This document shows positions 6,425 to 61,559 of a DNA stretch of 64,000 nucleotides, one piece after another. Where the stretch lies: contig NC_086097.1 in NCBI RefSeq assembly GCF_963921235.1, positions 24,802,001-24,866,000 on the forward strand. The letters are read 5' to 3'. The position numbers and the translations under genes are program-made. Each line of letters begins with the position of its first letter. Within the stretch, counting starts at the first letter, position 1. Below the pieces are notes generated by a model. The model was not told where the DNA came from. It was given only the letters and a program-made list of their open reading frames with translations, and did no database searches. The stretch is from Mobula hypostoma (Eukaryota).

Positions 6425-6658
6425 CACTCAGTGTCCACTTTATTAGATACACCTGTACACCCACTTGTTAATGGGAGAGGTCAGGGAGAATGGCCAGACT
6501 GATTCAAGCTGACCGGAAGGTGACAGTAACTCAAATAACTACACACTACAACAGTGGTGTGCAGAAGAGCACATCCAACTTTGAAATGGAAATCCACGAA
6601 CATACACTCAGTGGCCACTTTATTTGGTACAGGAGGTGCCTAATAAAGTGGCCACTGA
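6425..6658 (+). mobile_element. Non-autonomous Tc1-like element (internally deleted) ending in a mini TIR hairpin
   Basis: TIR-like cactcagtg.ccactttatt at 6425 and 6605, inverted at 6642-6658; internal peptide MARLIQADRKVTVTQITTHYNSGVQKS resembles a Tc1 transposase DNA-binding region. Confidence 0.75.
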
Positions 6659-6919
6659 ACATTGTTTCTGTAACTGGACAGTAATTCAAATCAAACACCT
6701 AACTCCAGAGAAGAGGTAAATGAAGATTTACTCACCACCTTCGCACTCTCCCCCAGCATTTTCCTATGATACCCCATTTTCAAACTCTTTGGCTCCTAAG
6801 GGCAGTGTAAACAGAACCTTTGAAAATCGTTTAAGGCACAGAGACATCGATTCCTGTTACAGGCAGTGATGGGACTGTGGAGCTGAATTTACAAACATAT
6901 TGTCCATGATCTTATTGAT

Positions 6920-23639: not shown

Positions 23640-23860
23640 TCAAACACTCTTCTCCACAACCCCTCTGCAGCCTTTATCCATCCCCTCAACAACGCCCCCC
23701 CCAATGCACTGCCACTCGTACATTGCGTCCTACCAAAGGGTCTCGCCAGAAACGTCAACTGTACTTTTTTTCCATAGATGCTGCCTGACCTGCTGAGTTC
23801 CTCCGGCATTTTGTGTGTGTTGCTTGGATTTCCAGCATCTACAGATTTCCTCTTGTTTGT
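23640..23860 (+). mobile_element. Decayed Penelope terminal-repeat copy (hammerhead motif eroded)
   Basis: aagggtctcgccagaaacgtcaactg...gatgctgcctgacctgctgagttcctcc, matching the Penelope 3' repeat at 32497-32596. Confidence 0.7.
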
Positions 23861-26328: not shown

Positions 26329-28327
26329 CAAAGAAGAAGCATACAAATTAGCCAGAGAAAGTGGCTCACCTGAGGACTGAGAGAAATTCAGAGTTCAGCA
26401 GAGGAGGACAAAGGGCTTAATTAGGAAGGGGAAAAAAGATTATGAGAGAAAACTGGCAGGGAACATAAAAACAGACTGTAAAAGCTTTTATAGATATGTA
26501 AAAAGGAAAAGACTGGTAAAGACAAATGTAGGTCCCCTGCAGACTGAAACAGGTGAATTGATTATGGGGAGCAAGGACATGGCAGACCAATTGAATAGTT
26601 ACTTTGGTTCTGTCTTCACTAAGGAGGACATAAATAATCTTCCAGAAATAGTAAGGGACAGAGGGTCCAGTGAGATGGAGGAACTGAGCGAAATACATGT
26701 TAGTAGGGAAGTGGTGTTAGGTAAATTGAAGGGATTAAAGGCAGATAAATCCCCAGGGCCAGATGGTCTGCATCCTAGAGTGCTTAAGGAAGTAGCCCAA
26801 GAAATAGTGGATGCATTAGTGATAATTTTTCAAAACTCGTTAGATTCTGGACTAGTTCCTGAGGATTGGAGGGTGGCTAATGTAACCCCACTTTTTAAAA
26901 AAGGAGGGAGGGAGAAACTGGGAAATTATAGACCGGTTAGCCTAACGTCGGTGGTGGGGAAATTGCTGGAGTCAGTTATCAAGGATGTGATAACAGCACA
27001 TTTGGAAAGCGGTGAAATGATCGGACAAAGTCAGCATGGATTTGTGAAAGGAAAATCATGTCTGATGAATCTCATAGAATTTTTTGAGGATGTAACTAGT
27101 AGAGTGGATGGGGGAGAACCAGTGGATGTGGTATATTTGGATTTTCAAAAGGCTTTTGACAAGGTCCCACATAGGAGATTAGTGTGCAAACTTAAAGCAC
27201 ACGGTATTGGGGGTAAGGTATTGGTGTGGGTGGAGAATTGGTTAGCAGACAGGAAGCAAAGAGTGGGAATAAACGGGACCTTTTCAGAATGGCAGGCGGT
27301 GACTAGTGGGGTACCGCAAGGCTCAGTGCTGGGACCCCAGTTGTTTACAATATATATTAATGACTTGGATGAGGGAATTAAATGCAGCATCTCCAAGTTT
27401 GCGGATGACACGAAGCTGGGTGGCAGTGTTAGCAGTGAGGAGGATGCTAAGAGGATGCAGGGTGACTTGGATAGGTTGGGTGAGTGGGCAAATTCATGGC
27501 AGATGCAATTTAATGTGGATAAATGTGAAGTTATCCACTTTGGTGGCAAAAATAGGAAAACAGATTATTATCTGAATGGTGGCCGATTAGGAAAAGGGGA
27601 GGTGCAACGAGACCTGGGTGTCATTATACACCAGTCATTGAAAGTGGGCATGCAGGTACAGCAGGCGGTGAAAAAGGCGAATGGTACGCTGGCATTTATA
27701 GTGAGAGGATTCAAGTACAGGAGCAGGGAGGTACTACTGCAGTTGTACAAGGCCTTGGTGAGACCACACCTGGAGTATTGTGTGCAGTTTTGGTCCCCTA
27801 ATCTGAGGAAAGACAGCTTTGCCATAGAGGGAGTACAAAGAAGGTTCACCAGATTGATTCCTGGGATGGCAGGACTTTCATATGAAGAAAGACTGGATGA
27901 ACTGGGCTTGTACTCGTTGGAATTTAGAAGATTGAGGGGGGATCTGATTGAAACGTATAAGATCCTAAAGAGATTGGACAGGCTAGATGCAGGAAGATCG
28001 TTCCCGATGTTGGGGAAGTCCAGAACGAGGGGCCACAGTTTGAGGATAGAGGGGAAGCCTTTTAGGACCAAGATTAGGAAAAACTTCTTCACACAGAGAG
28101 TGGTGAATCTGTGGAATTCTCTGCCACAGGAAACAGTTGAGGCCAGTTCATTGGCTATATTTAAGAGGGAGTTAGATATGGCCCTTGTGGCTACAGGGGT
28201 CAGGGGGTATGGAGGGAAGGCTGGGGCGGGGTTCTGAGTTGGATGATCAGCCATGATCATAATAAATGGCAGTGCAGGCTCGAAGGGCCGAATGGCCTAC
28301 TCCTGCACCTATTTTCTATGTTTCTAT
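26329..28327 (+). mobile_element. Young 5'-truncated CR1 LINE, copy A
   Basis: Near-identical to 46404-48493; TSD tatattc at 26322-26328 and 28325-28331; ctatgttt tail. Confidence 0.93.
26558..28237 (+). CDS. CR1 ORF2 reverse transcriptase domain (559 aa open frame; endonuclease missing through 5' truncation)
   Basis: KSPGPDG, NYRPVSLTS, LDFQKAFDKVPH, GVPQGSVLGP, FADDTKL, RPHLEYC motifs, uninterrupted. Confidence 0.9.
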   Translation: MIMGSKDMADQLNSYFGSVFTKEDINNLPEIVRDRGSSEMEELSEIHVSREVVLGKLKGLKADKSPGPDGLHPRVLKEVAQEIVDALVIIFQNSLDSGLVPEDWRVANVTPLFKKGGREKLGNYRPVSLTSVVGKLLESVIKDVITAHLESGEMIGQSQHGFVKGKSCLMNLIEFFEDVTSRVDGGEPVDVVYLDFQKAFDKVPHRRLVCKLKAHGIGGKVLVWVENWLADRKQRVGINGTFSEWQAVTSGVPQGSVLGPQLFTIYINDLDEGIKCSISKFADDTKLGGSVSSEEDAKRMQGDLDRLGEWANSWQMQFNVDKCEVIHFGGKNRKTDYYLNGGRLGKGEVQRDLGVIIHQSLKVGMQVQQAVKKANGTLAFIVRGFKYRSREVLLQLYKALVRPHLEYCVQFWSPNLRKDSFAIEGVQRRFTRLIPGMAGLSYEERLDELGLYSLEFRRLRGDLIETYKILKRLDRLDAGRSFPMLGKSRTRGHSLRIEGKPFRTKIRKNFFTQRVVNLWNSLPQETVEASSLAIFKRELDMALVATGVRGYGGKAGAGF

Positions 28328-29339: not shown

Positions 29340-29620
29340 CTGTAGAATTAACTTCCATCTTCTGCAGCCCCGTGTTGCCCCAACCACTCACCTCCCACCC
29401 TGTCACTATTTCCACCTTCCCACCTCCCCCTTCACCTGGATCCACCTCTCACTCCCCAGCTCCTGCCCCAACCCCACCCCTCACCTCTCTTCTCTGACTA
29501 TTTCCTGTCCACTCTCAGTCTAGAGGGAGCGTCTCGGCCCAAAATGTTGACAGTCCATTTCCCTCCACAGATGCTCCCTGACCCGCTGAGTTCCTCTGGC
29601 AGTTTGTTCTTTGGTTCGTA
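29340..29620 (+). mobile_element. Decayed Penelope-type terminal repeat
   Basis: Pyrimidine-rich body then cagtc..gtctcggcccaaaatgttgacag..gatgct..gctgagttcctc. Confidence 0.6.
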
Positions 29621-29749: not shown

Positions 29750-30325
29750 CTCTCCTATATATCGCTGCGACCCGGCGTAGATTGGGAGACCGCTTCGCCA
29801 AACGTCTGCGCTTCATCCACCAGAACAAGCAGGACCTCCCAGTGGCCACCTATTTTAATTCCGCTTCCCATTCCCATTCCCATTCCAATGCATCCATGAC
29901 CTTCTCCACTGTCATGATGAGACCACACTCAGGTTGGAGGAAAAACACCTTATGTTCCGCTTGGGTAGCCTCCAACCTGATGGTATGAACATCAATTTCC
30001 AGTAATGCCCCCCACCATTTCCCATCCCCTTTTCCTTCTCTGACCTTATCTCCTTTCCCGCCCAATGCCTTCCTCTGGTTCTCCTCCCCCCTGTTTTTTC
30101 TTCCATGTCCTTCTGTCACTTTCACCAATTAACTTCCCAGCACTTTACTTCATCCTTCCCCCATCACACCTTGTGTTTCTCTCTCTACTCCCCCACCTTT
30201 TAAATCTACTACTCATCTTTTTTTCTCCAGTTCCGCTGAAGGGTTTAGGTTCAAAACATCGACTGTTCTCTTTTCCTAGATGCTGCTTGGCCTGCTGAGT
30301 CCCTCCAGCATTTTGTTTGTGTTGC
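29750..30325 (+). mobile_element. Penelope-like element 3' part (GIY-YIG end plus terminal repeat)
   Basis: LLYIAATRRRLGDRF..DLPVATYFNS; terminal repeat with an eroded hammerhead at about 30228-30265. Confidence 0.8.
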
Positions 30326-30339
30326 TATGATATATGTAT

Positions 30340-30649: not shown

Positions 30650-31775
30650 ATATATGTATTGTGGGTGCACCATGGTCCAGAGGAATATTGTTTCACTTGG
30701 CTATATATACGTACAGTCAGATTACAATAAACTTGAACTTGAAAGACCACACAACCCTAATCATCCGGACTATGCAACGGCAGTCACTGAGTCACAGAAA
30801 TGTGCAAGACAAAAACAGGCCCCTCAATCCACTTATGTCACAAAGTCTCTGAATCATAGAGGATTCGAGTCATACAGCACAAAAACAGGTGCTTTGGTCC
30901 ATGACAACAAGTGTCCCATCTAAGCTTGTCCCACTTGTGCTCATTTGAATTGAATTGACTTTATTTCTTACATCCTTGGTATACATGAGGAGTAAAAATC
31001 ACCAAGCTGTGATGCACTCAGATAGCATGTTATGGTGTATTGATAATAATTTCATATTTGTATCAAAAATGGATGAATCAATTCTTATCCATGTATACAT
31101 CCAATTACCCAAGTGCTTTTTAATGTTCATGTACCTATCTGAAAAACTTCATTCAGCTCATTCCATATACTGAGCTCTCTCTGGGTGAAAAAGCTGCCTG
31201 TCAGGTATCTATTATATCTCTCCTCTCTAATTTCAAATCTATACCCTCCATTTCTTGATTCCCCGACCCTGGGAAATAGATTGTGTGCATTCACCCTGTC
31301 TGTGCCTCAGGATTTTAATCACCATTGTGTTATTACCCCTCTTCTCCTGCACTCCAATGAATAAGCTGCAAGCCTACTCACTGTCTCCAATAATTCAGTC
31401 CCTCTGTTCATGCTGATCGATATTAATTTCCTCTACCCACATCAGAGCTCTGTCCTGTGCCTTGCCTATTCAAGTGCTCGTTTAAATGCCTCTTGTCATA
31501 TACCCCACTGTTCAATGAGATTCCTTGCTTGTGTGAAGCTCACACAATGTTTACATTGTAAATACATGTTCGTACTAATGTACTTATGCTCACTTCACTT
31601 CACATCCATATTCTAGCTTTATTTTTATATAATTATTTATTCTTTAAAATAGTTGAAGGTTGTTGGTTTTGTTGCATGTCCTGCCAACACACCACAGCAA
31701 TTTCCCAATGCATATCAACGTACATGGTGAATAAAGTTGATCTTTGTTCCTTGCTCCTCACATGAAGGATATTCA

Positions 31776-32596
31776 AGGTATCCCACTGATCTCCCTCCTG
31801 GCACTTACCCGTCTAAGCGGAACAAGTGCTACACATGCCCTTACACTTTCTCCCTCACCACCATTCAGGGCCCCAGACAATCCTTCCAGGTGAGGCGACA
31901 CTTCACCTGTGAGTCGGCTGGGGTGATATACTGCATCCGATGCTCCCGATGCGGCCTTCTATATATTGGCGAGACCCGACGCAGAGTGGGAGATCGTTTC
32001 GCTGAACACCTACACTCTGTCCGTCAAAGAAAGCAAGATCTCCCAGTGGCCACACATTTTAATTCCACATCCCATTCCCATTCTGACATGTCTATCCACA
32101 GCCTCCTCTACTGTCAAGATGAAGCCACACTCAGGTTGGAAAAACAACACCTTGTATTCCGTCTGGGTAACCTCCAACCTGATGGCATGAACATTGACTT
32201 CTCTAACTTCCGCTAATGCCCCATCTCCCCTTCGTATCCCATCCATTATTTATTTATTTATACACATTCTTTTTCTCTGTCCTCTTTCTCCCTCTGTCCT
32301 TCTCACAATACTCCTTGCCCATCCGCTGGGCTTTCTCCCCCCCCACCTTTTCTTTCTTTCTCCCTAGGCCTCCTGTCCCATGATCCTCTCATATCCCTTT
32401 CTCGGCTCCATCCCTCCCCCTCCTGTCTTCTCATATCATTTTGGATCTCCCCCTCCCCCTCCCACTTTCAAATCTCTTACTAGCTCTTCTTTCAGTTAGT
32501 CCTGACGAAGGGTCTCGGCCTGAAACATCGACTGTACCTCTTCCTAGAGATGCTGCCTGGCCTGCTGTGTTCACCAGCAACTTTTATGTGTGTTGC
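31776..32596 (+). mobile_element. Penelope-like element 3' part: GIY-YIG endonuclease plus terminal repeat
   Basis: ORF 31737-32216: CYTC..FTCES..GVIYCIRCSRCGLLYIGET..RFAEH..VATHF..LEKQH..GMN; followed by a pyrimidine-rich repeat and a hammerhead motif. Confidence 0.9.
32497..32534 (+). ncRNA. Minimal type I hammerhead ribozyme motif (AUC variant)
   Basis: agtc-CTGACGA-a-gggtctcggcct-GAAAC-ATC-gact: stem I agtc/gact, conserved core boxes, stem-loop II; the helix III palindrome is altered (acat instead of acgt). Confidence 0.7.
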
Positions 32597-32599
32597 CTA

Positions 32600-32980
32600 A
32601 CAAGGTTGCTTCATGTCCTTCCGGTAAAATAAAATCTCTTCCCCTCTCCTCTTCTTCAATTCCCTACTCTCGCCTCTTACCTCTTTCTCACCTGCCTATC
32701 ACCTTCCTCTGGGTCCCATCCTCCTCCTCTTTCTCCTATGGTCCACTCTCCTCTCCAACCAGATTCCTTCTTCTCCAGCCCATCGTCTTTCCAACCCGCC
32801 TAGGTCCACATATCACCTTCTAGCTATCCTCCTTTCCCTCCCCCCAGCTTTTTATTCTGGCATCTTCCCCCTTCCTTTTCAGTCCTGAAGAAGGAATTCG
32901 GCCTGAAACGTCAACTGTTTGCTCATTTTCATGGATGCTGCCTGACCTTGAGCTCCTCCAGCTTTTTGTGTGTGTTGCTG
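32600..32980 (+). mobile_element. Second Penelope-type terminal repeat (different subfamily) in tandem
   Basis: Pyrimidine-rich body, hammerhead motif at 32880-32917, gatgctgcctgacc..gagctcctccagc..tgtgtgttgc end. Confidence 0.75.
32880..32917 (+). ncRNA. Minimal type I hammerhead ribozyme motif
   Basis: cagtc-CTGAAGA-aggaattcggcct-GAAAC-GTC-aactg (one stem I mismatch). Confidence 0.65.
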
Positions 32981-33700
32981 CAGATGGAATTTAATTCAAA
33001 GTTAGATGTTGCACTTTGGGAGGACCAACCATGCTAGGGCTTACATGGTGAGTGGCAGGGCACTGAGGGGTGAGTTAGCACGGAGGAACCTGGGAAGACA
33101 GATTCACAGTTCCTGGAAAGTGGAATCACAGGTAGATAGGGTCATTAAAAAAAATCATTTGGCACATTGGCTTTCATAAATCAAAATATTGATTACAGGA
33201 ATCAGGATGTTATGTTGAAGTTGTATAAGACATTGGTGAGGCCTAATTTGGAGTATTGTATGCATTTTTGGTCACCTACCTACAGTAAGGATGTCAGTAA
33301 GATTGAAAAAGCACACAGAAAATTTAGAAGAATGTTGCCAAGACATGAGGACCTCAGTTATAGTGTAAGGCTGAATAGGTTAAGATTTTATTTCTTAGAG
33401 TGTGAGAAGAGAATGAGGGGAGATTTGATAGAGGTGCACAAAATTATGAGAGGTACAGATAGGGTAAATGCAAGTAGTATTTTTCCACTGAGGTTGGGTG
33501 AGACTAGGACTAGTAGTCATGGGTTAAGGGTGAAATGTGAAATGTTTAACAGGAACATGGGAGGGAATTCCTTCACAGAGAGTGATGAGAGTGTGGATTG
33601 AGCTGCTAGCAGAAGTGGTGGATGCACGTTTAGCACAGAATAGATGGGCCGAGGGACTTGTTTCTGTGCTGTACTGTTCTATGACTCTGTGACTCTATGT
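32981..33700 (+). mobile_element. CR1 LINE 3' fragment
   Basis: ORF 33167-33601: LYKTLVRPNLEYCMHFW..MRGDLIEV; atgactct tail. Confidence 0.8.
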
Positions 33701-34323: not shown

Positions 34324-36700
34324 TGTTACGAACCCACAGGTTTTGTTTATTGTGGACTGTCACCTCAAGAGTGTTTAAATAAGGTAGGACTATGATGTTG
34401 TTCACTGACTGACTTGCAGCTTGTTTAACTTTAAAACAAGGACACAGACAGACACGGTCAGAAGTCAGTCGAGAGAGAGAGAGAAACTGGGAAGCTGGTA
34501 GCTTCAGCTTGTTGCAGCTGAGGCTAGGAACTCTCTTATGCCCACAAGGGTGGGTTAAACATTGGCACGGAGTGCATAACAGAATGTGTGTCTGTCACTT
34601 TGTATAATCCTAATGGAGTGGATTTTTCGGGATATCCTGTGGAGACCATTCATGTGTTAACACTTGCCTGGTTATGTTGTGTGGTAATACCTTGAAGACG
34701 ATATCCCTGTGACAGATCACTTTCGGTGATAACTTGTATGTAGATTTGGAACAAAATGACGGACAAGATCTTCACGACAATTGTTTTGTTTGCCTGTAGA
34801 ATTCAACGTAACCACTTTTTTTTCTACGTTTCACCCTGGATTACAAATATCTCTCTCCTATCATACATTCCGTGGATAAACTGAACTTTCCTACTTTACC
34901 ATCTTAAGACTCTAAGCTTTGTTTCCCCAAGCTTAACTTAGTTTGGGACCAATATTACACATATACATACACATAATACTGTTAACATTTGTTTATCTTG
35001 GTTAAGTTACAATATTATAAATAGGTAATAATAAAGATCGAGGTTTTAACATTAAAACCAGACTCCAGTGTGAACTCTACTGCTGCTGGTTTGTTTCTAA
35101 AACATTTCAGTTCGTAACAAAATTGGGGGCTCGTCCGGGATATGAACAAATTCGGAGCTTATTGATCAATTGATTATCGATCTTATTGGCTACTTCTCTT
35201 TTGACTTATTTGTGTGTGGAAATCAGCAGCAATGGATATTGGTAAATTTCTGGCATCACCAGACCTTGGGGAATTGGGGGACGGCAGAAAAGATGATTTG
35301 GTGGCTGCTGCTAAAAAGCTGAGACTTGTTTCGATTAAGCAGTCTATGAGAAAGCCAGAGATTCAGAGCAAAATATTTGAGCACTATATAGCTGCGAAGG
35401 TGTTTGTTGAGGGGGCGTTAGATATGTTTCCTGAAAGTAAACCAGTTAGCCCCGAACTCCAGTTATAGCTGGACCAATTAAGGTTCGACCAAGAGAGACT
35501 TAGATTAAAAGCTGCTGAAAAAGACAAACAGAGGCAGTTTGCAGCTGAAGAAGCTGAAAAACAGATGGAGGAAAATGAAAGACAAAGGAGGTTTGAGTTA
35601 GAGAATTTAGATGAGTTAGGGAATTTAGATAAGCTAGAGCAAAGGGGTCTAGCTTTTGACTCTGGTGAGAAGTTTGTGGCCAGTCAGGAAGTTAAATTGG
35701 TCCCTCCATTTAATGAAGCTGAGGTTGATAAATACTTCCAACATTATGAGAAAGTGGCCGAAAGAAAGCTGGTCTCCTTTGTTACAGAGTGTATTTAGGG
35801 GTAACGTTCAACAAGCTTACTCTGCTTTGTCAATTGGAGATGCAGCTAATTACGAGACAGTGAAACAGGCTGTGCTTAAAGCCTATGAATTGGTTCCAGA
35901 AGCCTATGGACAAAGGTTTAGAAATTTGAGGAAATCTGTGAACCAGACTTATGTAGAATTTGCTTATGAGAAGCTTGCTTGTTTTGACCGATGGTGCACA
36001 TCTAAGAATATGGATGATGATTTTGACAACTTGAAACAGTTGGTTTTAATTGAAGAATTTAAAAGGTGCATCCCTGATGACATAAAGACATATTTAGATG
36101 AAAAGGATGCTGCCACTTTGCAGGAGTCTGCTAGATTAGCAGATGAATTTGCTTTAACCCACAAGGTTAAGTTTACCTTGAGTAAGAGCTTCCCAAAGAG
36201 TAGCATTGATATTCTGGGTAAACCAGAAATTAAATCTGGGACGAGTGACAAGTGTAAGGATGAAAGGAAGCAAATGAAGGAAAAATATTCTGGTCTTACT
36301 TGTTACTATTGTAAGAAAGCTGGTCAAATGGCTAATTGTTCCGTCCTGAAGAAGAAGAAGGAAAAGGAGGTAGTCCCAAATGCTTGTAGTCAGCGTTGTG
36401 AAACACCTATAAACTCACAGGGTTCTGCACATTCTGATGAGGCTCAATTAAGGACTGAGAAGTCTGACCGAGTTAAGAAAGGATCCAATCATTTTATGTC
36501 AGATGGGTTAATATCAGTAAAGGAATAGTCAACCCTGGTACCAGTGAAAATTCTTCGAGATACTGGGGCATCTCAGTCACTTATATTAGACAGCTTTCTA
36601 AAATTTGGTGATGAGACTGACACCAGTGAGGTAAATCTTATTAAAGGCAAAGATAATGTAATTGCTGATTGTTTTTCCAGATGTTAAGCTTGCAATGTAT
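34324..36700 (+). mobile_element. Gmr1-like Gypsy element: 5' LTR, tRNA-Pro PBS, SCAN-type gag, internally deleted pol
   Basis: LTR 34324-35119 with 9-bp terminal inverted repeats tgttacgaa/ttcgtaaca; PBS tgggggctcgtccgggat at 35124-35141; no 3' LTR seen. Confidence 0.88.
35232..36687 (+). pseudogene. gag (SCAN-like capsid CTD, degenerate CCHC knuckle) plus protease start fused to RNase H end
   Basis: VLKAYELVPEAYGQRFR..FDRWC..LVLIEEFKRCIP..ARLADEF; CYYCKKAG..NC; ILRDTGASQSL; IKGKDNVIADCFSRC*. Confidence 0.85.
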
Positions 36701-44600: not shown

Positions 44601-46403
44601 TTGAGGAAGTAAAATGAAAACAGAATTCAGAACATACAGTTACAGATGAGGTAGACATAGAGTGCTATGGCCACAACCATAAGACATAGCAGATAAATTA
44701 GACCATTGAATCCATATGGAGTCTGCTCGACCATTCCATCATGGTTGATTCATTGTCCCTCTCAACCCACTCTTCTGCTTTCTCCCGTAACCTTTGACAT
44801 AGAAATAGGCTGTCAGACCTTTCTGATGTGAACAGTTTAGGCACTTGAGAGGGACAAAATTAAGGGCTCTCAGGAGAGAACAGGCCAATGGGACTGATTG
44901 ACTCTATGGCTGTCTCCTATGCTATAGCAGTTCTCAGTTCTACAGAAGACCAAGTTTATATATTTAGTTAGCACAGTGTTTACAGGCATTGTCAAACCTA
45001 TCCTGAGATTGTGGAATTAAGAACTAGAGGGCATAGACTTAAGGTGAGAGACTTAATGGAGCTTGAGGGGAGAATGTTGTACACAATGAAGTGGTGCATA
45101 TGTAGGATGAGCTGGAGAAGGATGTAGTTGAGACAGGTACAATAACAACCTTCAAAGGACAGTTGCACAGGAAAGTTTACAGTAATATGATCAAATTTGG
45201 GTAAATGGACTATCTTGGAAGCAGCATTTTGGTCAGCTTGAACGAATTGGGCTGTGCTGTATGATTCTATATATGAACATAACATAAAAAGAAGGAGCAG
45301 GAATGGGTCACCTGACCTGTCAAGCCTGCTTTGCCATTCAATGAGATCATGGCTGATCTGGCCATGGACTCAGGTCCACCTACCTGCCTTTTCCCTTTAA
45401 CTCTTAATTCCCCTGCTATGCGGAAAAAAAAAATCCATTCTTCTGACTAACAATCTTTACTACTGCTACACACCACGTGTGTTACACCAGTCAAGACACT
45501 GCTGCCATCCTTATCCTATTCTATTGACAGTTTGGAAATGCCTGTTCAAATTACACACAGTTGGAAGGACCATTAGTTACTTCAGAAAAGTTTTCAACTA
45601 TGAAGTTGCCTTCAAGAATCGTAAATATTCAGATTATCCTTCCCAATCTCACTGGCTCCCCTACTCTATTTAGGGTTGGAAGATGCTGTCCCCTTGTGAT
45701 TCCAGACCCAGACCACCAGGACTAACCACTCTGATACACTGGTGTTGGCATTGGTATATTATTGTACACATACCGAGATACATAGAAAAGTTTGTCTGGC
45801 ATACTGTTCATACAGCTCAAATCATTACACAGTGCATAGGTCTAGAATAAGGCAAAACAACAGCAATGCAGAAGAAAGTGTAAAACTACAACAAAAGTGC
45901 AAGATCATAACAAGGTGGACTGTGAGGTTAAGAATCCATCTTATTGTACGAGAGGTCCATTCAATCGTCTAATAAAGGTGGGATAGAAGCTATCCTTCAG
46001 ACTGGTGGCACATGCTTTCAGGCTTCTGTATCTTCTGCCCATTGGAGACGGAGAATTTCAGGGCCTTTTTTTTTGCATCATATGCTTATGAATCAATGAG
46101 CCTTATGAAGCTGCTTTACTGAGGCAATAGGAAGTGTAGACAGCGTTCATGGAACCCTTTGACTACAGGGAACACCGGGTGCTACCCGGTGTGGAGAAAG
46201 TGCATTCTCCAAATTGAGTGAGTGTAGTTATCCCATTTTGTTCAATAGCCTGATGGTTGAGGAGTAGTAACTGTTCTTGTACCTGGTGATGTAAGTCCTG
46301 AGGCTCCTGTACCTTCTACCTAATGACAGTGGTGAGAACTGAGTATGGCCTGGGTGCTGAGGATTTCTGATGATGGAAGCTGCTTCCCTATGACAGTGTT
46401 TCA

Positions 46404-48493
46404 AGGAAGGTAGTGCACCCATGGCTGACAAGGGAAATTAGGGATAGTATCAATTCCAAAGAAGAAGCATACAAATTAGCCAGAGAAAGTGGCTCACCTG
46501 AGGACTGGGAGAAATTCAGAGTTCAGCAGAGGAGGTCAAAGGGCTTAATTAGGAAGGGGAAAAAAGATTACGAGAGAAAACTGGCAGGGAACATAAAAAC
46601 GGACTGTAAAAGCTTTTATAGATATGTAAAAAGGAAAAGACTGGTAAAGACAAATGTAGGTCCCCTGCAGACAGAAACAGGTGAATTGATTATAGGGAGC
46701 AAGGACATGGCAGACCAATTGATTATGGGGAGCAAGGACATGGCAGACCAATTGAATAATTACTTTGGTTCTGTCTTCACTAAGGAGGACATAAATAATC
46801 TTCCAGAAATAGTAGGGGACAGAGGGTCCAGTGAGATGGAGGAACTGAGCGAAATACATGTTAGTAGGGAAGTGGTGTTAGGTAAATTGAAGGGATTGAA
46901 GGCAGATAAATCCCCAGGGCCAGATGGTCTGCATCCTAGAGTGCTTAAGGAAGTAGCCCAAGAAATAGTGGATGCATTAGTGATAATTTTTCAAAACTCG
47001 TTAGATTCTGGACTAGTTCCTGAGGATTGGAGGGTGGCTAATGTAACTCCACTTTTAAAAAAGGAGGGAGAGAGAACCCGGGGAATTATAGACCGGTTAG
47101 CCTAACGTCGGTGGTGGGGAAACTGCTGGAGTCAGTTATCAAGGATGTGATAACAGCACATTTGGAAAGCGGTGAAATGATCGGACAAAGTCAGCATGGA
47201 TTTGTGAAAAGAAAATCATGTCTGACGAATCTCATAGAATTTTTTGACGATGTAACTAGTAGAGTGGATAGGGGAGAACCAGTGGATGTGGTATATTTGG
47301 ATTTTCAAAAGGCTTTTGACAAGGTCCCACATAGATTAGTGTGCAAACTTAAAGCACACGGTATTGGAGGTAAGGTATTGGTGTGGGTGGAGAATTGGTT
47401 AGCAGACAGGAAGCAAAGAGTGGGAATAAACGGGACCTTTTCAGAATGGCAGGCGGTGACTAGTGGGGTACTGCAAGGCTCAGTGCTGGGACCCCAGTTG
47501 TTTACAATATATATTAATGACTTGGATGAGGGAATTAAATGCAGCATCTCCAAGTTTGCGGATGACACAAAGCTGGGTGGCAGTGTTAGCTGTGAGGAGG
47601 ATGCTAAGAGGATGCAGGGTGACTTGGATAGGTTGGGTGAGTGGGCAAATTCATGGCAGATGCAATTTAATGTGGATAAATGTGAAGTTATCCACTTTGG
47701 TGGCAAAAATAGGAAAACAGATTATTTTCTGAATGGTGGCCGATTAGGAAAAGGGGAAGTGCAACGAGACCTGGGTGTCATTATACACCAGTCATTGAAA
47801 GTGGGCATGCAGGTACAGCAGGCGGTGAAAAAGGCGAATGGTATGCTGGCATTTATAGTGAGAGGATTCGAGTACAGGAGCAGGGAGGTACTACTGCAGT
47901 TGTACGAGGCCTTGGTGAGACCACACCTGGAGTATTGTGTGCAGTTTTGGTCCCCTAATCTGAGGAAAGACATCCTTGCCATAGAGGGAGTACAAAGAAG
48001 GTTCACCAGATTGATTCCTGGGATGGCAGGACTTTCATATGAAGAAAGACTGGATGAACTGGGCTTGTACTCGTTGGAATTTAGAAGATTGAGGGGGGAT
48101 CTGATTGAAACGTATAAAATCCTAAAGGGATTGGACAGGCTAGATGCAGGAAGATTGTTCCCGATGTTGGGGAAGTCCAGAACAAGGGGTCACAGTTTGA
48201 GGATAAAGGGGAAGCCTTTTAGGACCGAGATTAGGAAAAACTTCTTCACACAGAGAGTGGTGAATCTGTGGAATTCTCTGCCACAGGAAACTGTTGAGGC
48301 CAGTTCATTGGCTATATTTAAGAGGGAGTTAGATATGGCCCTTGTGGCTATGGGGGTCAGGGGGTATGGAGGGAAGGCTGGGGCGGGGTTCTGAGTTGGA
48401 TGATCAGCCATGATCATAATAAATGGTGGTGCAGGCTCGAAGGGCCGAATGGCCTACTCCTGCACCTATTTTCTATGTTTCTATGTTTCTATG
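46404..48493 (+). mobile_element. Young 5'-truncated CR1 LINE, copy B (frameshift near 47060-47075)
   Basis: ORFs 46413-47105 and 47111-48394 are near-identical to copy A; (atgtttct)n tail; sits inside a minus-strand Rex-like fragment (46225-46403 / 48494-48740). Confidence 0.93.
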
Positions 48494-50423: not shown

Positions 50424-50845
50424 CACATAAAAGTTGCTGGTGAATGCAGCACGCCAGGCAGCATCTCTAGGAAGAGGTGCAGTCGACGTTTCAGGCCGAG
50501 ACCCTTCGTCAGGACTAACTGAAGGAAGAGTGAGTAAGGGATTTGAAAGTTGGAGGGAGAGGGGGAGATCCAAAATGATAGGAGAAGACAGGAGGGGGAG
50601 GGATGGAGCCAAGAGCTGGACAGTTGATTGGCAAAAGGGATACGAGAGGATCATGGGACAGGAGGTCCGGGAAGAAAGACAAGGGGGGGGGACCCAGAGG
50701 ATGGGCAAGGGGTATATTCAGAGGGACAGAGGGAGAAAAAGGAGAGAGAGAGAAAGAATGTGTGTATATAAATAAATAACGGATGGGGTATGACGGGGAG
50801 GTGGGGCATTAGCGGAAGTTAGAGAAGTCGTTCATGCCATCAGGT
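50424..50845 (-). mobile_element. Penelope terminal repeat plus ORF end
   Basis: Reverse complement of about 32180-32593. Confidence 0.88.
50480..50517 (-). ncRNA. Minimal type I hammerhead ribozyme motif (best-preserved copy)
   Basis: Minus strand reads tagtc-CTGACGA-a-gggtctcggcct-GAAAC-GTC-gactg, with palindromic ACGT at helix III. Confidence 0.78.
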
Positions 50846-52120
50846 GTTTCACACATCTCCTTTAAATATCCCCTCTTCACTTCAAATGCATGACTTCTAG
50901 TATTGGCATTTCTACCCTGGGTAATAGGATGCTGACCGACGACCCTGTCAATACCACTCTTAATTTGATAAATTTACATCGAGCTCCCTTCAGGATCTGA
51001 CACTCCAGAGAGAACAGACCAAGTTTGTGCTGCCTCTTCTGACAGCTCATACCCTCCAATCCAGACAGCAAGTACAATCTCAAAGAGATGCAGGTTGGCC
51101 ACTGCAAATTGGCTCTAGTGTGTCGGTGAGTAGTAGAGTCTAGTGAGGAGTTAATGAGAAAGTTCAAGTTCAAAGTAAATTTATTATAAAAGAATGCATC
51201 TTCTTACAGGCAGCCACAAAACAAAGAAACACAGCAGAATCCACGAAAACCCCAGACAACAAAGACCAACAAACATCCAATATGCAAGAAAAGAACAAAT
51301 CATGCAAACCATTAAAAAGTGAACAAATCATACACGCTACGTGAACTGCAGGGTCCTCGAAAGTGAATCCACGGAGTCAGTTCTGTGCTGAGACAAACGA
51401 AGTGGGTCCAGGAGCCCCACAGCTGCAGAGGAACAAATATGAATATGGCGGCGTGGACCCAAGACTCCTGCACCATCTGCCCAATGGTAGAAGTGAGAAG
51501 AGAGAAGGAGGTCAAACCCAGGCAGACAGGTCAGGCTCAGTTGGGAAGCCAACACAAGATTAACGTAGGATTACTGAAAATGGCTGATTTCAGTTGTCCA
51601 AAGGACCTGTGGCTTCTCCCGAAGACTCTCTGAGAATACTATCATACTCCAGGTTTGTGGGATTAGGTGAACATAATGCTGGATATTTTGAACTTCTTGC
51701 TTTTAACCTTTGTCGCCCCAGGATCACAATCTGAGCCCAATGGGAGATAGATATTTGTAGATTATTTATTGTGAAGAACTGGTACAACTTCAACCTGGCA
51801 TCCTCAGGAGGCTAAAGGAATTTGGCATGTTCCCATCAAGCCTTGCCAATTTTTGTCAATGCACCTTAGAAAGCATCCTATCTGAATGCATACTGGCTTG
51901 GTCCGGCAATTGATCTGCCTGAGACCACAAAAATCTGCAGAGCTGTGGACACATTGCAGGAACCAGCCTCTGCTCTATGGACTCGATCTATACTTTTTGC
52001 TACCTCATTGAAGCAGCCAGCATAATCAGAGATCTCACCCACCTCATCAGTTCTTTCTCCTCCCTTCTCCCATTGGGCAGAAGATACACACCAGTAGGAT
52101 CAAAGTTTAAAGTAACATTT

Positions 52121-54978
52121 GATTCTAAATATATGAATGATTTTTTAGATAATCTAGACTTCCCTGAGATTTCACAGGATATGTCTTCTATGTTAGATAC
52201 TCCCATTACCACGGATGAGATTAAGAATGTTATTTTCTCTGTGAATTTGGGGAAAGCTCCTGGCCCTGATGGGTTTACCGTAGAATTTTATAAATGTTTC
52301 GCTCCTTCATTAATCCCTTGGTTCTGTAGGGTTTTTGAGGCTTCATTAAAACTTGGTAAACTTCCTGAATCTTTCAATAGAGCGTCAATCTCTCTAATAT
52401 TAAAGAAGGATAAAGATCCTGCTCAATGTGCATCTTATAGACCAATATCTTTATTAAATGTTGATTCTAAAGTTTTTTCTAAGTTATTAGCAAATAGATT
52501 AGAAAAAGTACTTCCTTCTATTATTTCGGAAGACCAAACGGGTTTTATTAAAGGTCGTTACTCTTTTTATAATATTCGCACACTGTTAAATATTGTTTCT
52601 ACTCCCTCACAAAATGTTCCTGAGTGTGTTATCTCTTTAGATGCTGAAAAAGCTTTTGATAGAGTAGAATGGCCTTATTTATTTAAGGTGCTTGAAATGT
52701 TTAATTTTAGCTCGAAATTTATATCCTGGATTAAACTGTTATATCATTCTCCTGTGGCCTCGGTCCGTACTAACTTTTTAAGTTCACCTTTTTTCCCTCT
52801 TTCTCGAGGTACTCGACAAGGTTGTCCTCTTAGTCCTTTATTATTTGATATTGCGTTAGAACCTCTTGCAATTGCCATTCGAGAATCTCCAAATATTACT
52901 GGGATAACTCGGGGCTTAAAGTCCCATAAAACATCACTCTATGCTGATGACTTACTTTTATATATTTCTAATCCCCAAAAATCCATCCCGGCTGTTTTAG
53001 AGCTATTAGCACAATTTGGTCTTTTTTCAGGTTATAAATTAAATCTTAGTAAGAGTGAACTTTTCCCGATTAATAAACAACTTCCCTTAGATCATAACTT
53101 TCCATTTAAATTGATTAATAATTATTTTTCATATCTTGGGATTAAAATTACTTGTAAATACAAAGATTTATTTAAGATTAACTTTTACCATTAATTGACC
53201 ATATTATTCAACTTTCATCTAAATGGTTTCCTTTATATTTAACTTTGATTGGTCGTATTAATGCAGTTAAGATGTTTTTTTTGCCAAAATTTTTATATAT
53301 ATTTCAGGCATTACCAATCTTTGTTCCAAAATCTTTTTTTGATAAAGTCGACTCCAAAATTTCTTCATTTATTTGGTAAAATAAAAACTCGAGACTGGGT
53401 AAAATACATTTACAGAAAGCTAAGAGAGATGGAGGCTGAGCATTACCTAACTTTAGATTTTATTATTGGGCAATTAATATTCGACATATGAAATTTTGGT
53501 TACTTGACCAGGATATACTATCCATTCCTAAATGGGTAGCATTGGAATTACAATCTGTTCAGGGTTATACACTTGGCTCTATTTTAGGTTCCTCTCTTCC
53601 TTTTGATTTGAAACGCCTTAAACAGGTGTCTAACCCGATAGTTAAATATACCTTACGTATTTGGTTTCAATTCAGAAAATTTTTTGATCTTAATAAATTT
53701 GGGTTAGCAATTCCTATTTTAGGTAACATATTTTTTCCTCCCTCTTTTACGGATCGTGCTTTTCAAATTTGGAAGACTAAGGGTATTTCACGGTTTTTGG
53801 ATTTATTTTTAGATGGTTCCCTTATGTCTTTTGAACAATTATCTAATAAATATAATTTATCAAGAATACATTTTTTTAGATATCTACAAGTTAGAAATTT
53901 CCTAAGTACTATACTTTCTTCCTTTCCAATGCTTCCTCCTACATACATTTTAGATACTATAATTAACCTTAATCCATGTCAGAAAGGTGCATCGGCTATG
54001 ATTTATAATATTATTATGAAACTTAGGAAAGCTCCATTTGATAAGATTAGGGTAGATTGGGAACAGGAATTGGGATTTATCATTTCCGTGGATGACTGGG
54101 GGCAGATTTTACAATTAGTCAATACTTCCTCTATCTGTGCTAAACATTCCCTAATTCAATTTAAAGTTGTTCCTAGAGCACATACGTCCAAAGATAAATT
54201 AGCTCACTTTTATTCTCATATTAATCCTTTTTGTGATAGATGTCCGGGGCAGATAGCCTCTTTAACTCATATGTTTTGGTCTTGTCCTACTCTGGAAACT
54301 TTTTGGAGAGACATTTTTAATATTATCTCCAAGGTATTGAATATAGATATCTCTCCTCACCCTATTACTGCTATCTTTGGACTACCTAAAATTTCCAGTA
54401 ATCTTTCCCCTTCAGCCCGTAGAATGATTGCATTTCTTACTTTAATGGCGAAAAGATGTATCTTACAACATTGGAGAGAGCTTAATGCTCCAACTACCTT
54501 TTTTTGGTTTTCTCAGACGATATTATGCTTGAATTTGGAGAAAATTAGAAGCAGTCTTTATGATTCCTCATTTAAATTTGAACAGACCTGGAGATCTTTT
54601 ATTCAATATTTTCATTTAATGTAATATATACCCTTCTTGTTTTTTTTTACTGTTTTTAATGGAGGTCGGGATTGAGGATGTGATTTTAAGTTTTTTAACT
54701 CTGCTTGGTTCCAAGTTAGCCCATTGCTTTGCTTTTAGTTAGTTGCACGGTGGGGTTTTTTTGGGGTTTTTTTTTTCCTTTTCTCTATTGATATATATAT
54801 ATAAAATTAGTATACTATTACGTTACCTTGGTACGTTATGTTTAAATTACATTGTTTGTATAATTTTTTTTGTATTAATATCTTCTGTAATTTTATTATA
54901 TTCTAACAGTGTATTAGTGCCTATATGGCTTACCTTTTTGTATACTTATTCAATAAAAAGATTTAAGAAGAAAAAAAG
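52121..54978 (+). mobile_element. 5'-truncated L1-clade LINE (RT, C-terminal zinc knuckle, 3' UTR, A tail)
   Basis: GKAPGPDGF, YRPISLLN, LDAEKAFDRV, RQGCPLSP, LYADD, CDRC..HMFWSC; AATAAA at about 54952; 19-bp TSD aaagtttaaagtaacattt at 52102-52120 and 54979-54997. Confidence 0.95.
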
Positions 54979-60089: not shown

Positions 60090-60755
60090 AAGCACTTCAG
60101 TTGTGAGTCTGTTGGGGTCATCTATTGCATCCGGTGCTCCCGGTGCAGCCTCCTCTACATCGGTGAAACCCGACGCAGATTGGGGGACCACTTCGTCGAG
60201 CACCTCCACTCCGTCCGCCACAACAGACAGGATCTCCCGGTTGCCACCCACTTCAACTCTGCTTCACATTCCCATTGGGATATGTCCATACATGGCCTCC
60301 TCTACTGCCATGACGAGGCCAAACTCCGGTTGGAGGAGCAACACTTCATATACAGTCTGGGTAGTCTCCAGCCCCTTGGCATGAACATTGAATTCTTCAA
60401 CTTCTGGTAATTCCCTCCCCCTCCCTTCCCCCATTCCTGTTTCTCTCTGCCCCCTCTTCCAGCTGCCTATCACCTCCCTCATGTTTCCGCCTCCTCCACT
60501 GTGTGTTCCCCTATTCCTTCTTCACCTTTCCTGCCTATCACCTCCCTGCTTCATCTCCCCCAGCCCTTGATCTTTCCCCTCACTGGTTTTTCACCTGGAA
60601 CCTACCAGCCTTCTCCTTCCCACCTTCCTTATAGGGCCCCTGCCCCCTCCCTCTTCAGTCCTGATGAAGGGTCTCGGCCCAAAACACTGACTGTTCGTTT
60701 CCATGGATGCTGCCCGACCTGCTGAGTTCCTCCAGCGTGTTGTGCGTGATGCAAA
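60090..60755 (+). mobile_element. Penelope-like element 3' part (GIY-YIG plus terminal repeat with hammerhead motif at 60656-60693)
   Basis: GVIYCIRCSRCSLLYIGETRRRLGDHF..GMN; cagtc-CTGATGA-agggtctcggccc-aAAAC-act-gactg (core mutated). Confidence 0.88.
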
Positions 60756-61124
60756 GCAAGCTTTTCTCCATACCTTGGTACACAGGGCAATAACAAACCA
60801 ATTTCAATTCCAATTCCTATTTAGCCTGGGCCAGCCTTAGATGTCCTGACAATAGATCACATAGTTTGATACTGGAGTGACATATCGACAGGCGAGATAA
60901 TGTCAGTGGGCTCACAGCACTGGAAACACTGGAAACACTGATGTATCAACAGGTGAGGAATGGTCTGTGGGCTCACAGTCTCAACAGAGTTGGGGGAGTT
61001 GGCTGAAGTGTTGAAAGAACTTGTTGCCATCCTGAACTCCATCTAGAGTTATAGAGAGATAAGGTACCTTTCAGCTTACTAAATCCATAGAAACCATTAA
61101 ACATACATTTACGCTAATCCTGAG

Positions 61125-61340
61125 CAATACAGAAAATGCTGGAGGAACTCAGCAACATCAGTGGAGGAAAATAAACTGTCAACGTTTCAGGCCGAGTCCC
61201 TTCATTAAGATTTGTCCTTCATCAGTGTCTTGGCCTGAAACATCAACTGTTCATTCCTCTCCATAGATGCTGCCATGCCTGCTGAGTTCCTCCAGCATTT
61301 TGTGTGTGGCTTTGGACTTGCAGCATCTGCAGAACTTATT
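61125..61340. repeat. Inverted pair of Penelope terminal-repeat ends (fold-back)
   Basis: Perfect 22-bp inverted repeat at 61133-61154 / 61280-61301 enclosing opposed hammerhead remnants. Confidence 0.75.
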
Positions 61341-61559
61341 GTGCCTCTGATTTACTCTAATCCTACACTCAGCCATTTTCTGTCCTCCCATGTTCCCATG
61401 AACACCTCCAAGATTATAAAACTCACCTGCAAACTAGGGACAATTGATAGTGGCCAAGTAATCTCCCAACCCACACCTAAGTGTACACCTGTACAGTCCC
61501 GAGAACTCCTGTGGTCTTCACAGAGGACCTACTTCCAAAAAGCCATTCCTCCAAACTGC

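What the first reader, a model, noticed from the sequence alone, without database searches (positions are those of the whole stretch)
50480..50517. Hammerhead ribozyme motif in the dispersed Penelope terminal repeat
Seen: the minus strand reads agtc-CUGACGA-A-GGGUCUCGGCCU-GAAAC-GUC-gacu, giving stem I, the CUGANGA box, stem-loop II, the GAAA box and a GUC cleavage triplet, with helix III reduced to the palindrome ACGU. Related copies lie at about 23730, 29516, 30228, 32497, 32880, 60656, 61175 and 61225. Known: Penelope-like elements carry minimal type I hammerheads proposed to act as dimers. Inference: this genome holds a very abundant self-cleaving RNA motif that would cut any transcript running through an intact copy. 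The ORF track does not show it.
Basis: partly seen in the sequence, partly recalled or inferred. Interest (0 to 1): 0.75.

Follow-up and report, generated by a model that had tools for sequence, protein, structure and literature searches.

The report
Penelope retrotransposon hammerhead in a ray
This is a real, intact copy of the tiny hammerhead RNA motif already known from the end repeats of Penelope-like jumping genes, present in at least 45,000 exact copies in what is likely a ray genome; a lone copy like this one is predicted to fold into an inactive shape and likely does not cut host RNAs, so the finding is mostly ordinary.

Summary
It ends a 421-bp, 5'-truncated fragment of an RT + GIY-YIG Penelope-like element (Neptune-type linker). 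Full-length copies (3,516-bp unit) carry it in both pseudo-LTRs. The genome, likely a ray near Mobula, holds 45,476 exact matches to a 34-nt pattern; about 77,000 copies would pass a strict descriptor. All eight other listed copies exist but are damaged. The catalytic boxes are constant across subfamilies, and stems covary across seven families. This is the published minimal hammerhead of Penelope-like elements. The claim that it cuts any transcript running through is unsupported: helix III is absent, the monomer is predicted to pair its core with the cleavage triplet, and published monomers need a partner or the element's protein. Insertions keep 60-100 nt beyond the cut site and show no pile-up of 5' ends there; 5' ends pile up about 25-fold at the front of stem I, so copies likely derive from uncut RNA that starts at the ribozyme. 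This scan noted the family (at least 21 genomes) and that pile-up before; I took that lead and re-tested it. Cleavage is untested.

The parts
50481..50516 (-). Minimal type I hammerhead motif (stem I, CUGACGA, bulged A, 4-bp stem II closed by G.U, GAAA, ACGU palindrome, GUC; predicted cut between 50485 and 50484)
50425..50845 (-). 5'-truncated 3' fragment of the Penelope-like element: last codons of the GIY-YIG ORF, pyrimidine-rich 3' UTR, hammerhead, and about 60 nt beyond the cut site; no tail; 91.8% identical to full-length copy L082 (positions -339..+87 relative to C3)
50809..50845 (-). End of the RT-endonuclease ORF (stop codon 50811-50809, about 300 nt upstream of the hammerhead)
   Evidence: one search compared
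50425..50480 (-). Conserved segment 3' of the cut site that leads to the first of two insertion 3' ends (likely reverse-transcription start region)
31782..32596 (+). Longer fragment of the same element: GIY-YIG ORF end (31731-32216) plus pseudo-LTR with a hammerhead at 32497-32534 that has lost the palindrome
23721..23859 (+). Decayed older copy of the pseudo-LTR end, core damaged
29515..29613 (+). Decayed older copy, core damaged
30178..30331 (+). Decayed older copy downstream of a GIY-YIG remnant (29756-29992), core damaged
32836..32981 (+). Older copy: boxes and GUC intact, stem I and stem II damaged
60655..60754 (+). Older copy downstream of an ORF remnant (60093-60446); GAAA box and triplet damaged
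61119..61344 (.). Head-to-head (inverted) pair of older copies, 61210-61119 on minus and 61213-61344 on plus, both damaged

Best explanation
The motif is an intact minimal type I hammerhead in the 3' pseudo-LTR of a 5'-truncated Penelope-like retrotransposon copy; it is likely silent as a lone copy and likely cuts only in the parent element's own RNA, as a pair or with the element's protein. Shown: full-length elements are partial tandems with the motif in both repeats, 3,516 nt apart, 166 nt before the ORF's Met and about 300 nt after its stop. Shown: insertions run 60-100 nt past the cut site and their 5' ends pile up at the front edge of stem I, not at the cut site. Inferred: the element's RNA starts at about the first base of stem I, the motif folds into a rod that hides the core, and most new copies are reverse-transcribed from uncut RNA. 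Inferred, untested: cleavage is a rare, gated event that would remove the first ~30 nt of the RNA and, if both repeats cut, free a unit-length RNA that could be ligated into the circle proposed to yield partial tandems. The tens of thousands of dispersed copies are by-products of 5' truncation, not a host RNA-cutting system.
For: Element identity: 50425-50845 aligns to the 3' end of full-length copy L082; L082 has one open frame of 1,043 codons with RT and C-terminal GIY-YIG between two repeats that each hold the motif; 3 of 3 long tandems fetched have this layout. Conservation: majority sequences of five subfamily groups (4-20% divergence, 210 of 212 copies) keep both boxes, both stems and GUC and differ only at N7 and 11.1; across 16 copies from 7 families 78% of stem cells pair (shuffles 55%, 0/500) with 26 two-sided changes. 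Silent monomer: rod fold -11.0 vs open core -7.0 kcal/mol; double hammerhead -11.5 vs two rods -22.0; published monomer inactive, dimer weak (PMC4209133); protein-assisted cleavage, not needed for insertion in vitro (PMC11167929). Uncut template: 30 of 30 copies continue 60-100 nt past the cut; 0 of 30 copies holding the ORF-side 5' junction begin at the cut; flank-type 5' starts, normalised, are 20, 186, 106, 106, 74 at +27..+31 (mean of +27/+28 = 103) against about 2,670 at -3.
Against: No cleavage, transcript end or circle was observed here. Nearest-neighbour energies ignore tertiary contacts and Mg2+, and the same inhibitory pairing is predicted for 2 of 4 other families folded, so it may be a generic property of the CUGANGA/CGUC layout. 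The raw count at the cut site is about 2-fold above its neighbours (255 vs 88, 201, 176, 119); I attribute this to the CpG at +27/+28 but a small true excess (under about 100 copies) is not excluded. The pile-up was measured genome-wide at one position only (-3) and could be a reverse-transcriptase barrier rather than an RNA start. 17 of 30 copies with the ORF-side junction extend 25 to >1,378 nt upstream of C3, so an RNA starting at stem I cannot be the only template. The cross-family alignment was chosen by a core-only pattern and by eye.
Confidence: 0.65

Rival explanations
1. The motif descends from a hammerhead but is no longer a working ribozyme in the youngest subfamily; it is kept because it overlaps the transcription start, a promoter or a protein-binding site, or is merely carried along.
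For: The youngest subfamily fixed U11.1 (24 of 24 copies; 83 of the first 100 matches listed, counted by eye) and mostly C7, which weaken stem II by about 1.9 kcal/mol and strengthen the inhibitory pairing by about 1.8. Cleavage was dispensable for insertion in vitro in the Anolis element; Naiad elements thrive without hammerheads and Craig et al. suggest hammerheads may parasitise PLEs (PMC8557442).
Against: Every catalytic position and the palindrome are unchanged across subfamilies while only the free position N7 and a wobble-preserving 11.1 change; G.U closing pairs occur in published minimal hammerheads (supplement rows for cichlid and coelacanth); six other families keep the same core with unrelated stems.
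Confidence: 0.25
2. One reading: dispersed intact copies cut host transcripts that run through them, making the family a genome-wide RNA-cleaving load.
For: About 77,000 copies would pass a strict descriptor (95% interval 45,000-123,000), so long pre-mRNAs may hold two same-strand copies, and the element's protein could act in trans.
Against: No helix III in a monomer; rod fold favoured by 4 kcal/mol; published monomer inactive; no reads ended at the site in Anolis RNA-seq; the only same-strand relative in this window (61210) is damaged.
Confidence: 0.07
3. A chance resemblance to a hammerhead in a repeat.
For: Folding z-scores are unremarkable (-1.15 for the 40-mer) and Rfam finds nothing.
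Against: 0 hits in 110 control sequences; covarying stems across families; position in the pseudo-LTR as published.
Confidence: 0.01

Closest known systems
Minimal hammerheads (min-HHR) in pseudo-LTRs of metazoan Penelope-like elements (Cervera and De la Pena 2014, PMC4209133; parts 1-2 of 4 read, supplement file 2 searched)
   Same: Type I topology, 4-5-bp helix I, extra nucleotide between 9 and 10.1, palindromic 15.2-16.2, no helix III, in both pLTRs, mostly found as single truncated copies, several families per genome; reported from Xena, Poseidon and Neptune elements of fishes, coelacanth (~4,000) and Xenopus (~9,000).
   Different: Short 4-bp helix II (7-8 bp in the Schistosoma families); at least 45,476 exact copies, 5-10 times the published vertebrate counts; host is likely a ray, a group not named in the passages and supplement file searched.
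Poseidon element of Anolis carolinensis, PAc (Frangieh et al. 2024, PMC11167929; parts 1-2 of 4 read)
   Same: Two insertion 3' ends about 35 nt apart (optional tail) downstream of the hammerhead; copies appear to come from uncut RNA.
   Different: In PAc the ORF starts inside stem II; here the Met lies at +166. This element has the Cys linker of Neptune/Nematis. Protein-assisted cleavage is shown for PAc, untested here.
Neptune-type endonuclease-positive PLEs (Craig et al. 2021, PMC8557442; passages read)
   Same: RT + C-terminal GIY-YIG, CX2-5CxxC linker, partial tandems, inverted 5'-truncated copies, 30-40-bp tail, hammerhead in pLTR.
   Different: Clade not fixed by a tree here (Neptune vs Nematis).
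Non-LTR retrozymes (bioRxiv 10.64898/2026.07.22.740005; parts 1-2 of 5 and passages read, supplements closed)
   Same: Type I hammerheads related to PLE pLTRs; reported in one chondrichthyan genome.
   Different: Retrozymes are ORF-less tandem repeats; this copy is the truncated end of an autonomous element and is not tandem.

Membership tests
min-HHR of PLEs | CUGANGA and GAAA boxes with NUH triplet | tested here: met
min-HHR of PLEs | Helix I of 4-5 bp closing the motif (type I) | tested here: met
   4 Watson-Crick pairs plus U.G; compensatory change in a sister subfamily, L264
min-HHR of PLEs | [quoted passage not shown] | tested here: met
   A at 50505; present in all families aligned
min-HHR of PLEs | Helix II closed by a 10.1-11.1 pair (G-C typical, G.U in some published members) | tested here: met
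   G.U in this copy and the youngest subfamily, G-C in older majority sequences; G.U rows in the published alignment
min-HHR of PLEs | No helix III; palindromic 15.1-16.1 | tested here: met
   ACGU at 50489-50486
min-HHR of PLEs | Covariation of stems across families | tested here: met
   (16 copies, 7 families); stem II >=3 bp in 18 of 30 and stem I >=3 bp in 12 of 30 core-selected loci, shuffle means 5.0 and 1.6, maxima 13 and 7
min-HHR of PLEs | Located in both pLTRs of a PLE | tested here: met
   3 of 3 long tandems
min-HHR of PLEs | Self-cleavage as dimer or with protein | not testable with these tools
   needs an in vitro assay; only contig runs were available
EN+ Penelope-like element | Single ORF with RT and C-terminal GIY-YIG endonuclease | tested here: met
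   L082 open frame 1,043 codons; RVT_1 E 2.5e-5 and GIY-YIG E 6e-4 in P0001, both under Pfam gathering scores; GIY-YIG above gathering score in window 31731-32213
EN+ Penelope-like element | Partial tandems, inverted 5'-truncated copies, optional 30-40-bp tail | tested here: met
   tail in 16 of 30 copies, counted by eye
Neptune clade | CX2-5CxxC linker between RT and EN | tested here: met
   C-x4-C-x2-C at residue 910 of the L082 frame; shared with Nematis
Neptune clade | Placement in RT phylogeny | not tested
   no named reference PLE proteins on hand
Non-LTR retrozyme | ORF-less tandem units each with a hammerhead | tested here: not met
   no tandem at the locus; the copy carries the ORF end
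Rfam hammerhead families | Match to a covariance model | tested here: not met
   no hammerhead family among 5 matches at E<=1

The most novel reading that the evidence does not exclude
The element's RNA begins at the first bases of stem I, so the hammerhead is a self-inhibited 5' switch: uncut, the RNA is translated and copied; cut with help from the element's protein or the second copy, it loses its cap and can become the circle that makes partial tandems. The most recently amplified subfamily fixed two changes predicted to damp cleavage, and tens of thousands of dated insertion ends record this, offering a direct test of what Penelope hammerheads are for.
Probability: 0.3. Interest if true: 0.55.

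Novelty: new member of a known kind. Interest (0 to 1): 0.22.

Why it matters
The class is published, so the motif alone adds a host group and an unusually high copy number. Its value is as material: what PLE hammerheads do in vivo is open (PMC8557442, PMC11167929), and this genome offers young full-length elements, a graded series of subfamilies, and enough insertion ends to show that copies are made from RNA uncut at the hammerhead and that 5' ends gather at its front edge. If dispersed copies did cut host RNA it would be a large hidden load, but nothing here supports that.

Tried and rejected
Rfam scan: no hammerhead hit. Fossil footprint of cleavage: counted copies whose 5' end falls at +27..+31 and classified 170 loci; the excess at +28 is balanced by a deficit at +27; rejected as evidence of in vivo cutting. 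Full-length copies starting at the cut: 0 of 30. Cap-derived extra G before the -3 starts: G in 10 of 16 flank-type loci (p 0.01) but at least 3 lie inside target-site duplications; inconclusive. Splice acceptor at the front of stem I: 0 of 30 loci starting at -3 had element sequence upstream in direct orientation; not supported. Expression: no RNA holder listed; 18 of 23 runs only guessed to be RNA, all contigs; 4 runs laid show only that related organisms hold the family with CpG-type, N7 and 11.1 variants; no evidence on expression or RNA ends. Lunse et al. 2017 (PMC5785218) not held; seen only as cited in PMC6765202. PMC544870 and PMC6155905 passages gave nothing on G.U at 10.1-11.1 or on sharks. 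Not tested: 3' ends at the cut site, intron orientation bias, whether the window lies in a gene, RT tree.

Full report
Observation. The minus strand at 50516-50481 holds stem I, CUGACGA, a bulged A, stem II, GAAA, the palindrome ACGU and GUC exactly as reported. Positions below are relative to C3 (window 50512); the predicted cut is between +27 and +28. My strict descriptor found this one hit in the window and none in 100 Markov-1 controls, and 17 hits in 770 kb sampled at even steps on four contigs against none in 10 controls. The eight other listed places are all homologues but none passes the descriptor. Rfam gave five weak matches, none a hammerhead.

What carries it. The motif ends a 421-bp fragment (50845-50425) that starts in the last codons of an ORF and matches the 3' end of a long element at 91.8%. 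A sister fragment at 31782-32596 includes a GIY-YIG domain above Pfam's cut-off. Searching the genome with an ORF stretch (40 of 1,483 candidates scored, 30 loci) gave 3 loci with a same-strand hammerhead upstream; all 3 are partial tandems with the motif in both repeats and a unit of about 3,516 bp; L082 has one open frame of 1,043 codons, Met at +166, stop about 300 nt before the second motif. RT and GIY-YIG are detected, under gathering scores, in P0001; a C-x4-C-x2-C linker precedes the endonuclease, the Neptune/Nematis mark according to PMC8557442 (passages). Inverted 5'-truncated partners are common, and copies end at about +90 to +97 or about 35 nt later (14 and 16 of 30, by eye). The closest named proteins are from Mobula (92-94%), Hypanus (78-81%) and sharks (67-70%), so the host is likely a myliobatiform ray (inference).

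Abundance. A 34-nt pattern with two free positions has 45,476 exact matches in 3.48 Gb, reversed control 0. Extrapolating the sample gives about 77,000 descriptor-passing copies (45,000-123,000) and about 740,000 fragments of the lineage (163 hits in 770 kb). Only 352 exact matches to the ORF-side 5' junction exist. Cervera and De la Pena report about 4,000 and 9,000 motifs in coelacanth and Xenopus.

Conservation. I grouped 212 copies spanning the motif (from the even sample, the window and 180 pattern-selected loci, so not an unbiased set) into subfamilies. Majority sequences of five groups with 4-20% internal divergence keep both boxes, both stems and GUC; they differ at N7 (U older, C younger) and 11.1 (C older, U in 24 of 24 youngest copies, despite a selection bias towards C) while the flanks differ more. 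A two-copy group has a compensatory A-U to G-C change in stem I. Core-only patterns revealed other families (554 matches vs 70 control). Among all 30 loci, stem II >=3 bp formed in 18 and stem I >=3 bp in 12, against shuffle means 5.0 and 1.6; both together in only 8, as many are decayed or mutant copies. In 16 hand-picked copies of 7 families, 78% of 106 cells pair and 26 show two-sided changes (0/500 shuffles), though the number of pairs with such a change (5 of 7) is not above shuffles and relatedness inflates the test.

Would it cut? The monomer's predicted minimum is a rod in which G5-G8 pair with C15.2-C17 (-11.0 vs -7.0 kcal/mol for the open core; pair probability 0.98); the double hammerhead scores -11.5 against -22.0 for two rods and -30.3 for an extended duplex. 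In longer context other folds win. Natural variants show U11.1 weakening stem II by about 1.9 and C7 strengthening the rod by about 1.8 kcal/mol. These are secondary-structure estimates only. They agree with published work: a minimal monomer was inactive and dimers weak (PMC4209133); the Anolis PLE hammerhead cut only with protein, was dispensable for insertion, and no RNA-seq reads ended at its site (PMC11167929).

What insertion ends record. All 30 copies continue 60-100 nt past the cut, so their templates were not linear RNAs ending there. Of 30 copies holding the ORF-side junction, none begins at +28; 17 extend 25 to >1,378 nt upstream of C3, 4 begin at -13..-6 and 9 inside or after the motif. 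Genome-wide counts of copies whose family sequence starts at +27, +28, +29, +30, +31 were 88, 255, 201, 176, 119; of 30, 60, 30, 30, 20 loci classified, 3, 14, 7, 8, 4 join unrelated flank, giving normalised estimates 20, 186, 106, 106, 74. +27 and +28 form a CpG and average 103, so I read no pile-up at the cut; a small excess cannot be excluded. Earlier notes of this scan said copies start just before the motif. Testing that: among 100 distinct copies, 11 flank-type starts fall in -10..0 and 6 in -44..-11; genome-wide 1,270 copies start at -3, 16 of 30 with unrelated flank, about 2,670 normalised, some 25 times the level near the cut. The simplest reading is an RNA 5' end at the front of stem I; the sequence there fits an initiator consensus (recalled, no call), and Drosophila Penelope is transcribed from within its upstream pLTR (PMC2377424, passages). 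A reverse-transcriptase barrier is the alternative.

Mechanism. Most likely (0.65) the motif belongs to the element's own cycle: RNA starts at the motif, stays uncut in a rod fold, is copied from 60-100 nt past the cut site, and is cut only rarely with a partner or the protein, which would decap it or free a unit that could circularise, as Cervera and De la Pena proposed. The layout and the ends are shown; the RNA start, the fold and any cleavage are inferred. A catalytically dead relic (0.25) and cutting of host transcripts (0.07) are the rivals.

Novelty. The class is published. I found no paper naming it in sharks or rays in searches for hammerhead + Penelope (25 of 45 listed), + shark (16), Penelope + Mobula (66), hammerhead ribozyme + cartilaginous fish (80), Penelope + elasmobranch (81); supplement file 2 of PMC4209133 has no shark, skate or Callorhinchus entry, file 1 could not be searched. 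Lunse et al. 2017 was not held and the closed supplements of the 2026 preprint, which reports retrozymes in one chondrichthyan, may bear on this. PMC3846280 (passages) already describes inverted pLTRs, tails and an Inr-like pLTR site in rotifer elements. This scan holds 62 findings with these words in at least 21 genomes. Verdict: real, new member of a known kind, interest 0.22.

Noticed in passing
L291-L320, L271, L278 (genome-wide): At least six further minimal-hammerhead families with the same core and unrelated 3-8-bp stems; one (L297, L300, L312) closely resembles the cichlid row of the published alignment.
   Followed up: partly
L280:1440-1700: Tandem units of roughly 120 nt, each with a decayed hammerhead core; retrozyme-like.
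   Followed up: no
G000:C2:157816713-157817366 and C2:122542752-122543047: The ORF-side 5' junction recurs at 310-bp and 262-bp spacing: short tandem arrays of pLTR plus ORF start, possible retrozyme precursors.
   Followed up: no
L082:3530-3605: Segment 3' of the cut site is nearly as conserved across subfamilies as the hammerhead and is predicted to form a long stem next to the two insertion 3' ends; candidate protein-binding or RT-start element.
   Followed up: partly
L082:3479-3650: Three ATGs (+48, +84, +88) lie between the hammerhead and the ORF Met at +166.
   Followed up: no
L001/L002, L040, L047 and many others; window 61119-61344: Very frequent head-to-head fold-back insertions whose junctions use microhomologies inside the hammerhead.
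   Followed up: partly
window 6598-6669: A 70-bp near-perfect inverted repeat with weak Rfam microRNA matches far below gathering score; likely a small DNA-transposon-type hairpin.
   Followed up: no
window 26381-28237, 46374-48394, 51923-54624, 35653-36528: Other retroelement remains: RT at 26381 (46374-48394 is a near-identical copy) and 51923 with zf-RVT at 53440, and a SCAN-domain gag-like frame at 35653; CR1, L1/Tx1 and Gypsy labels are recalled.
   Followed up: no
P0008, P0032: Ray gene models named as host genes (a kinase-domain and a chitinase-domain protein isoform) contain long pieces of this PLE ORF; exonisation or annotation artefact.
   Followed up: no
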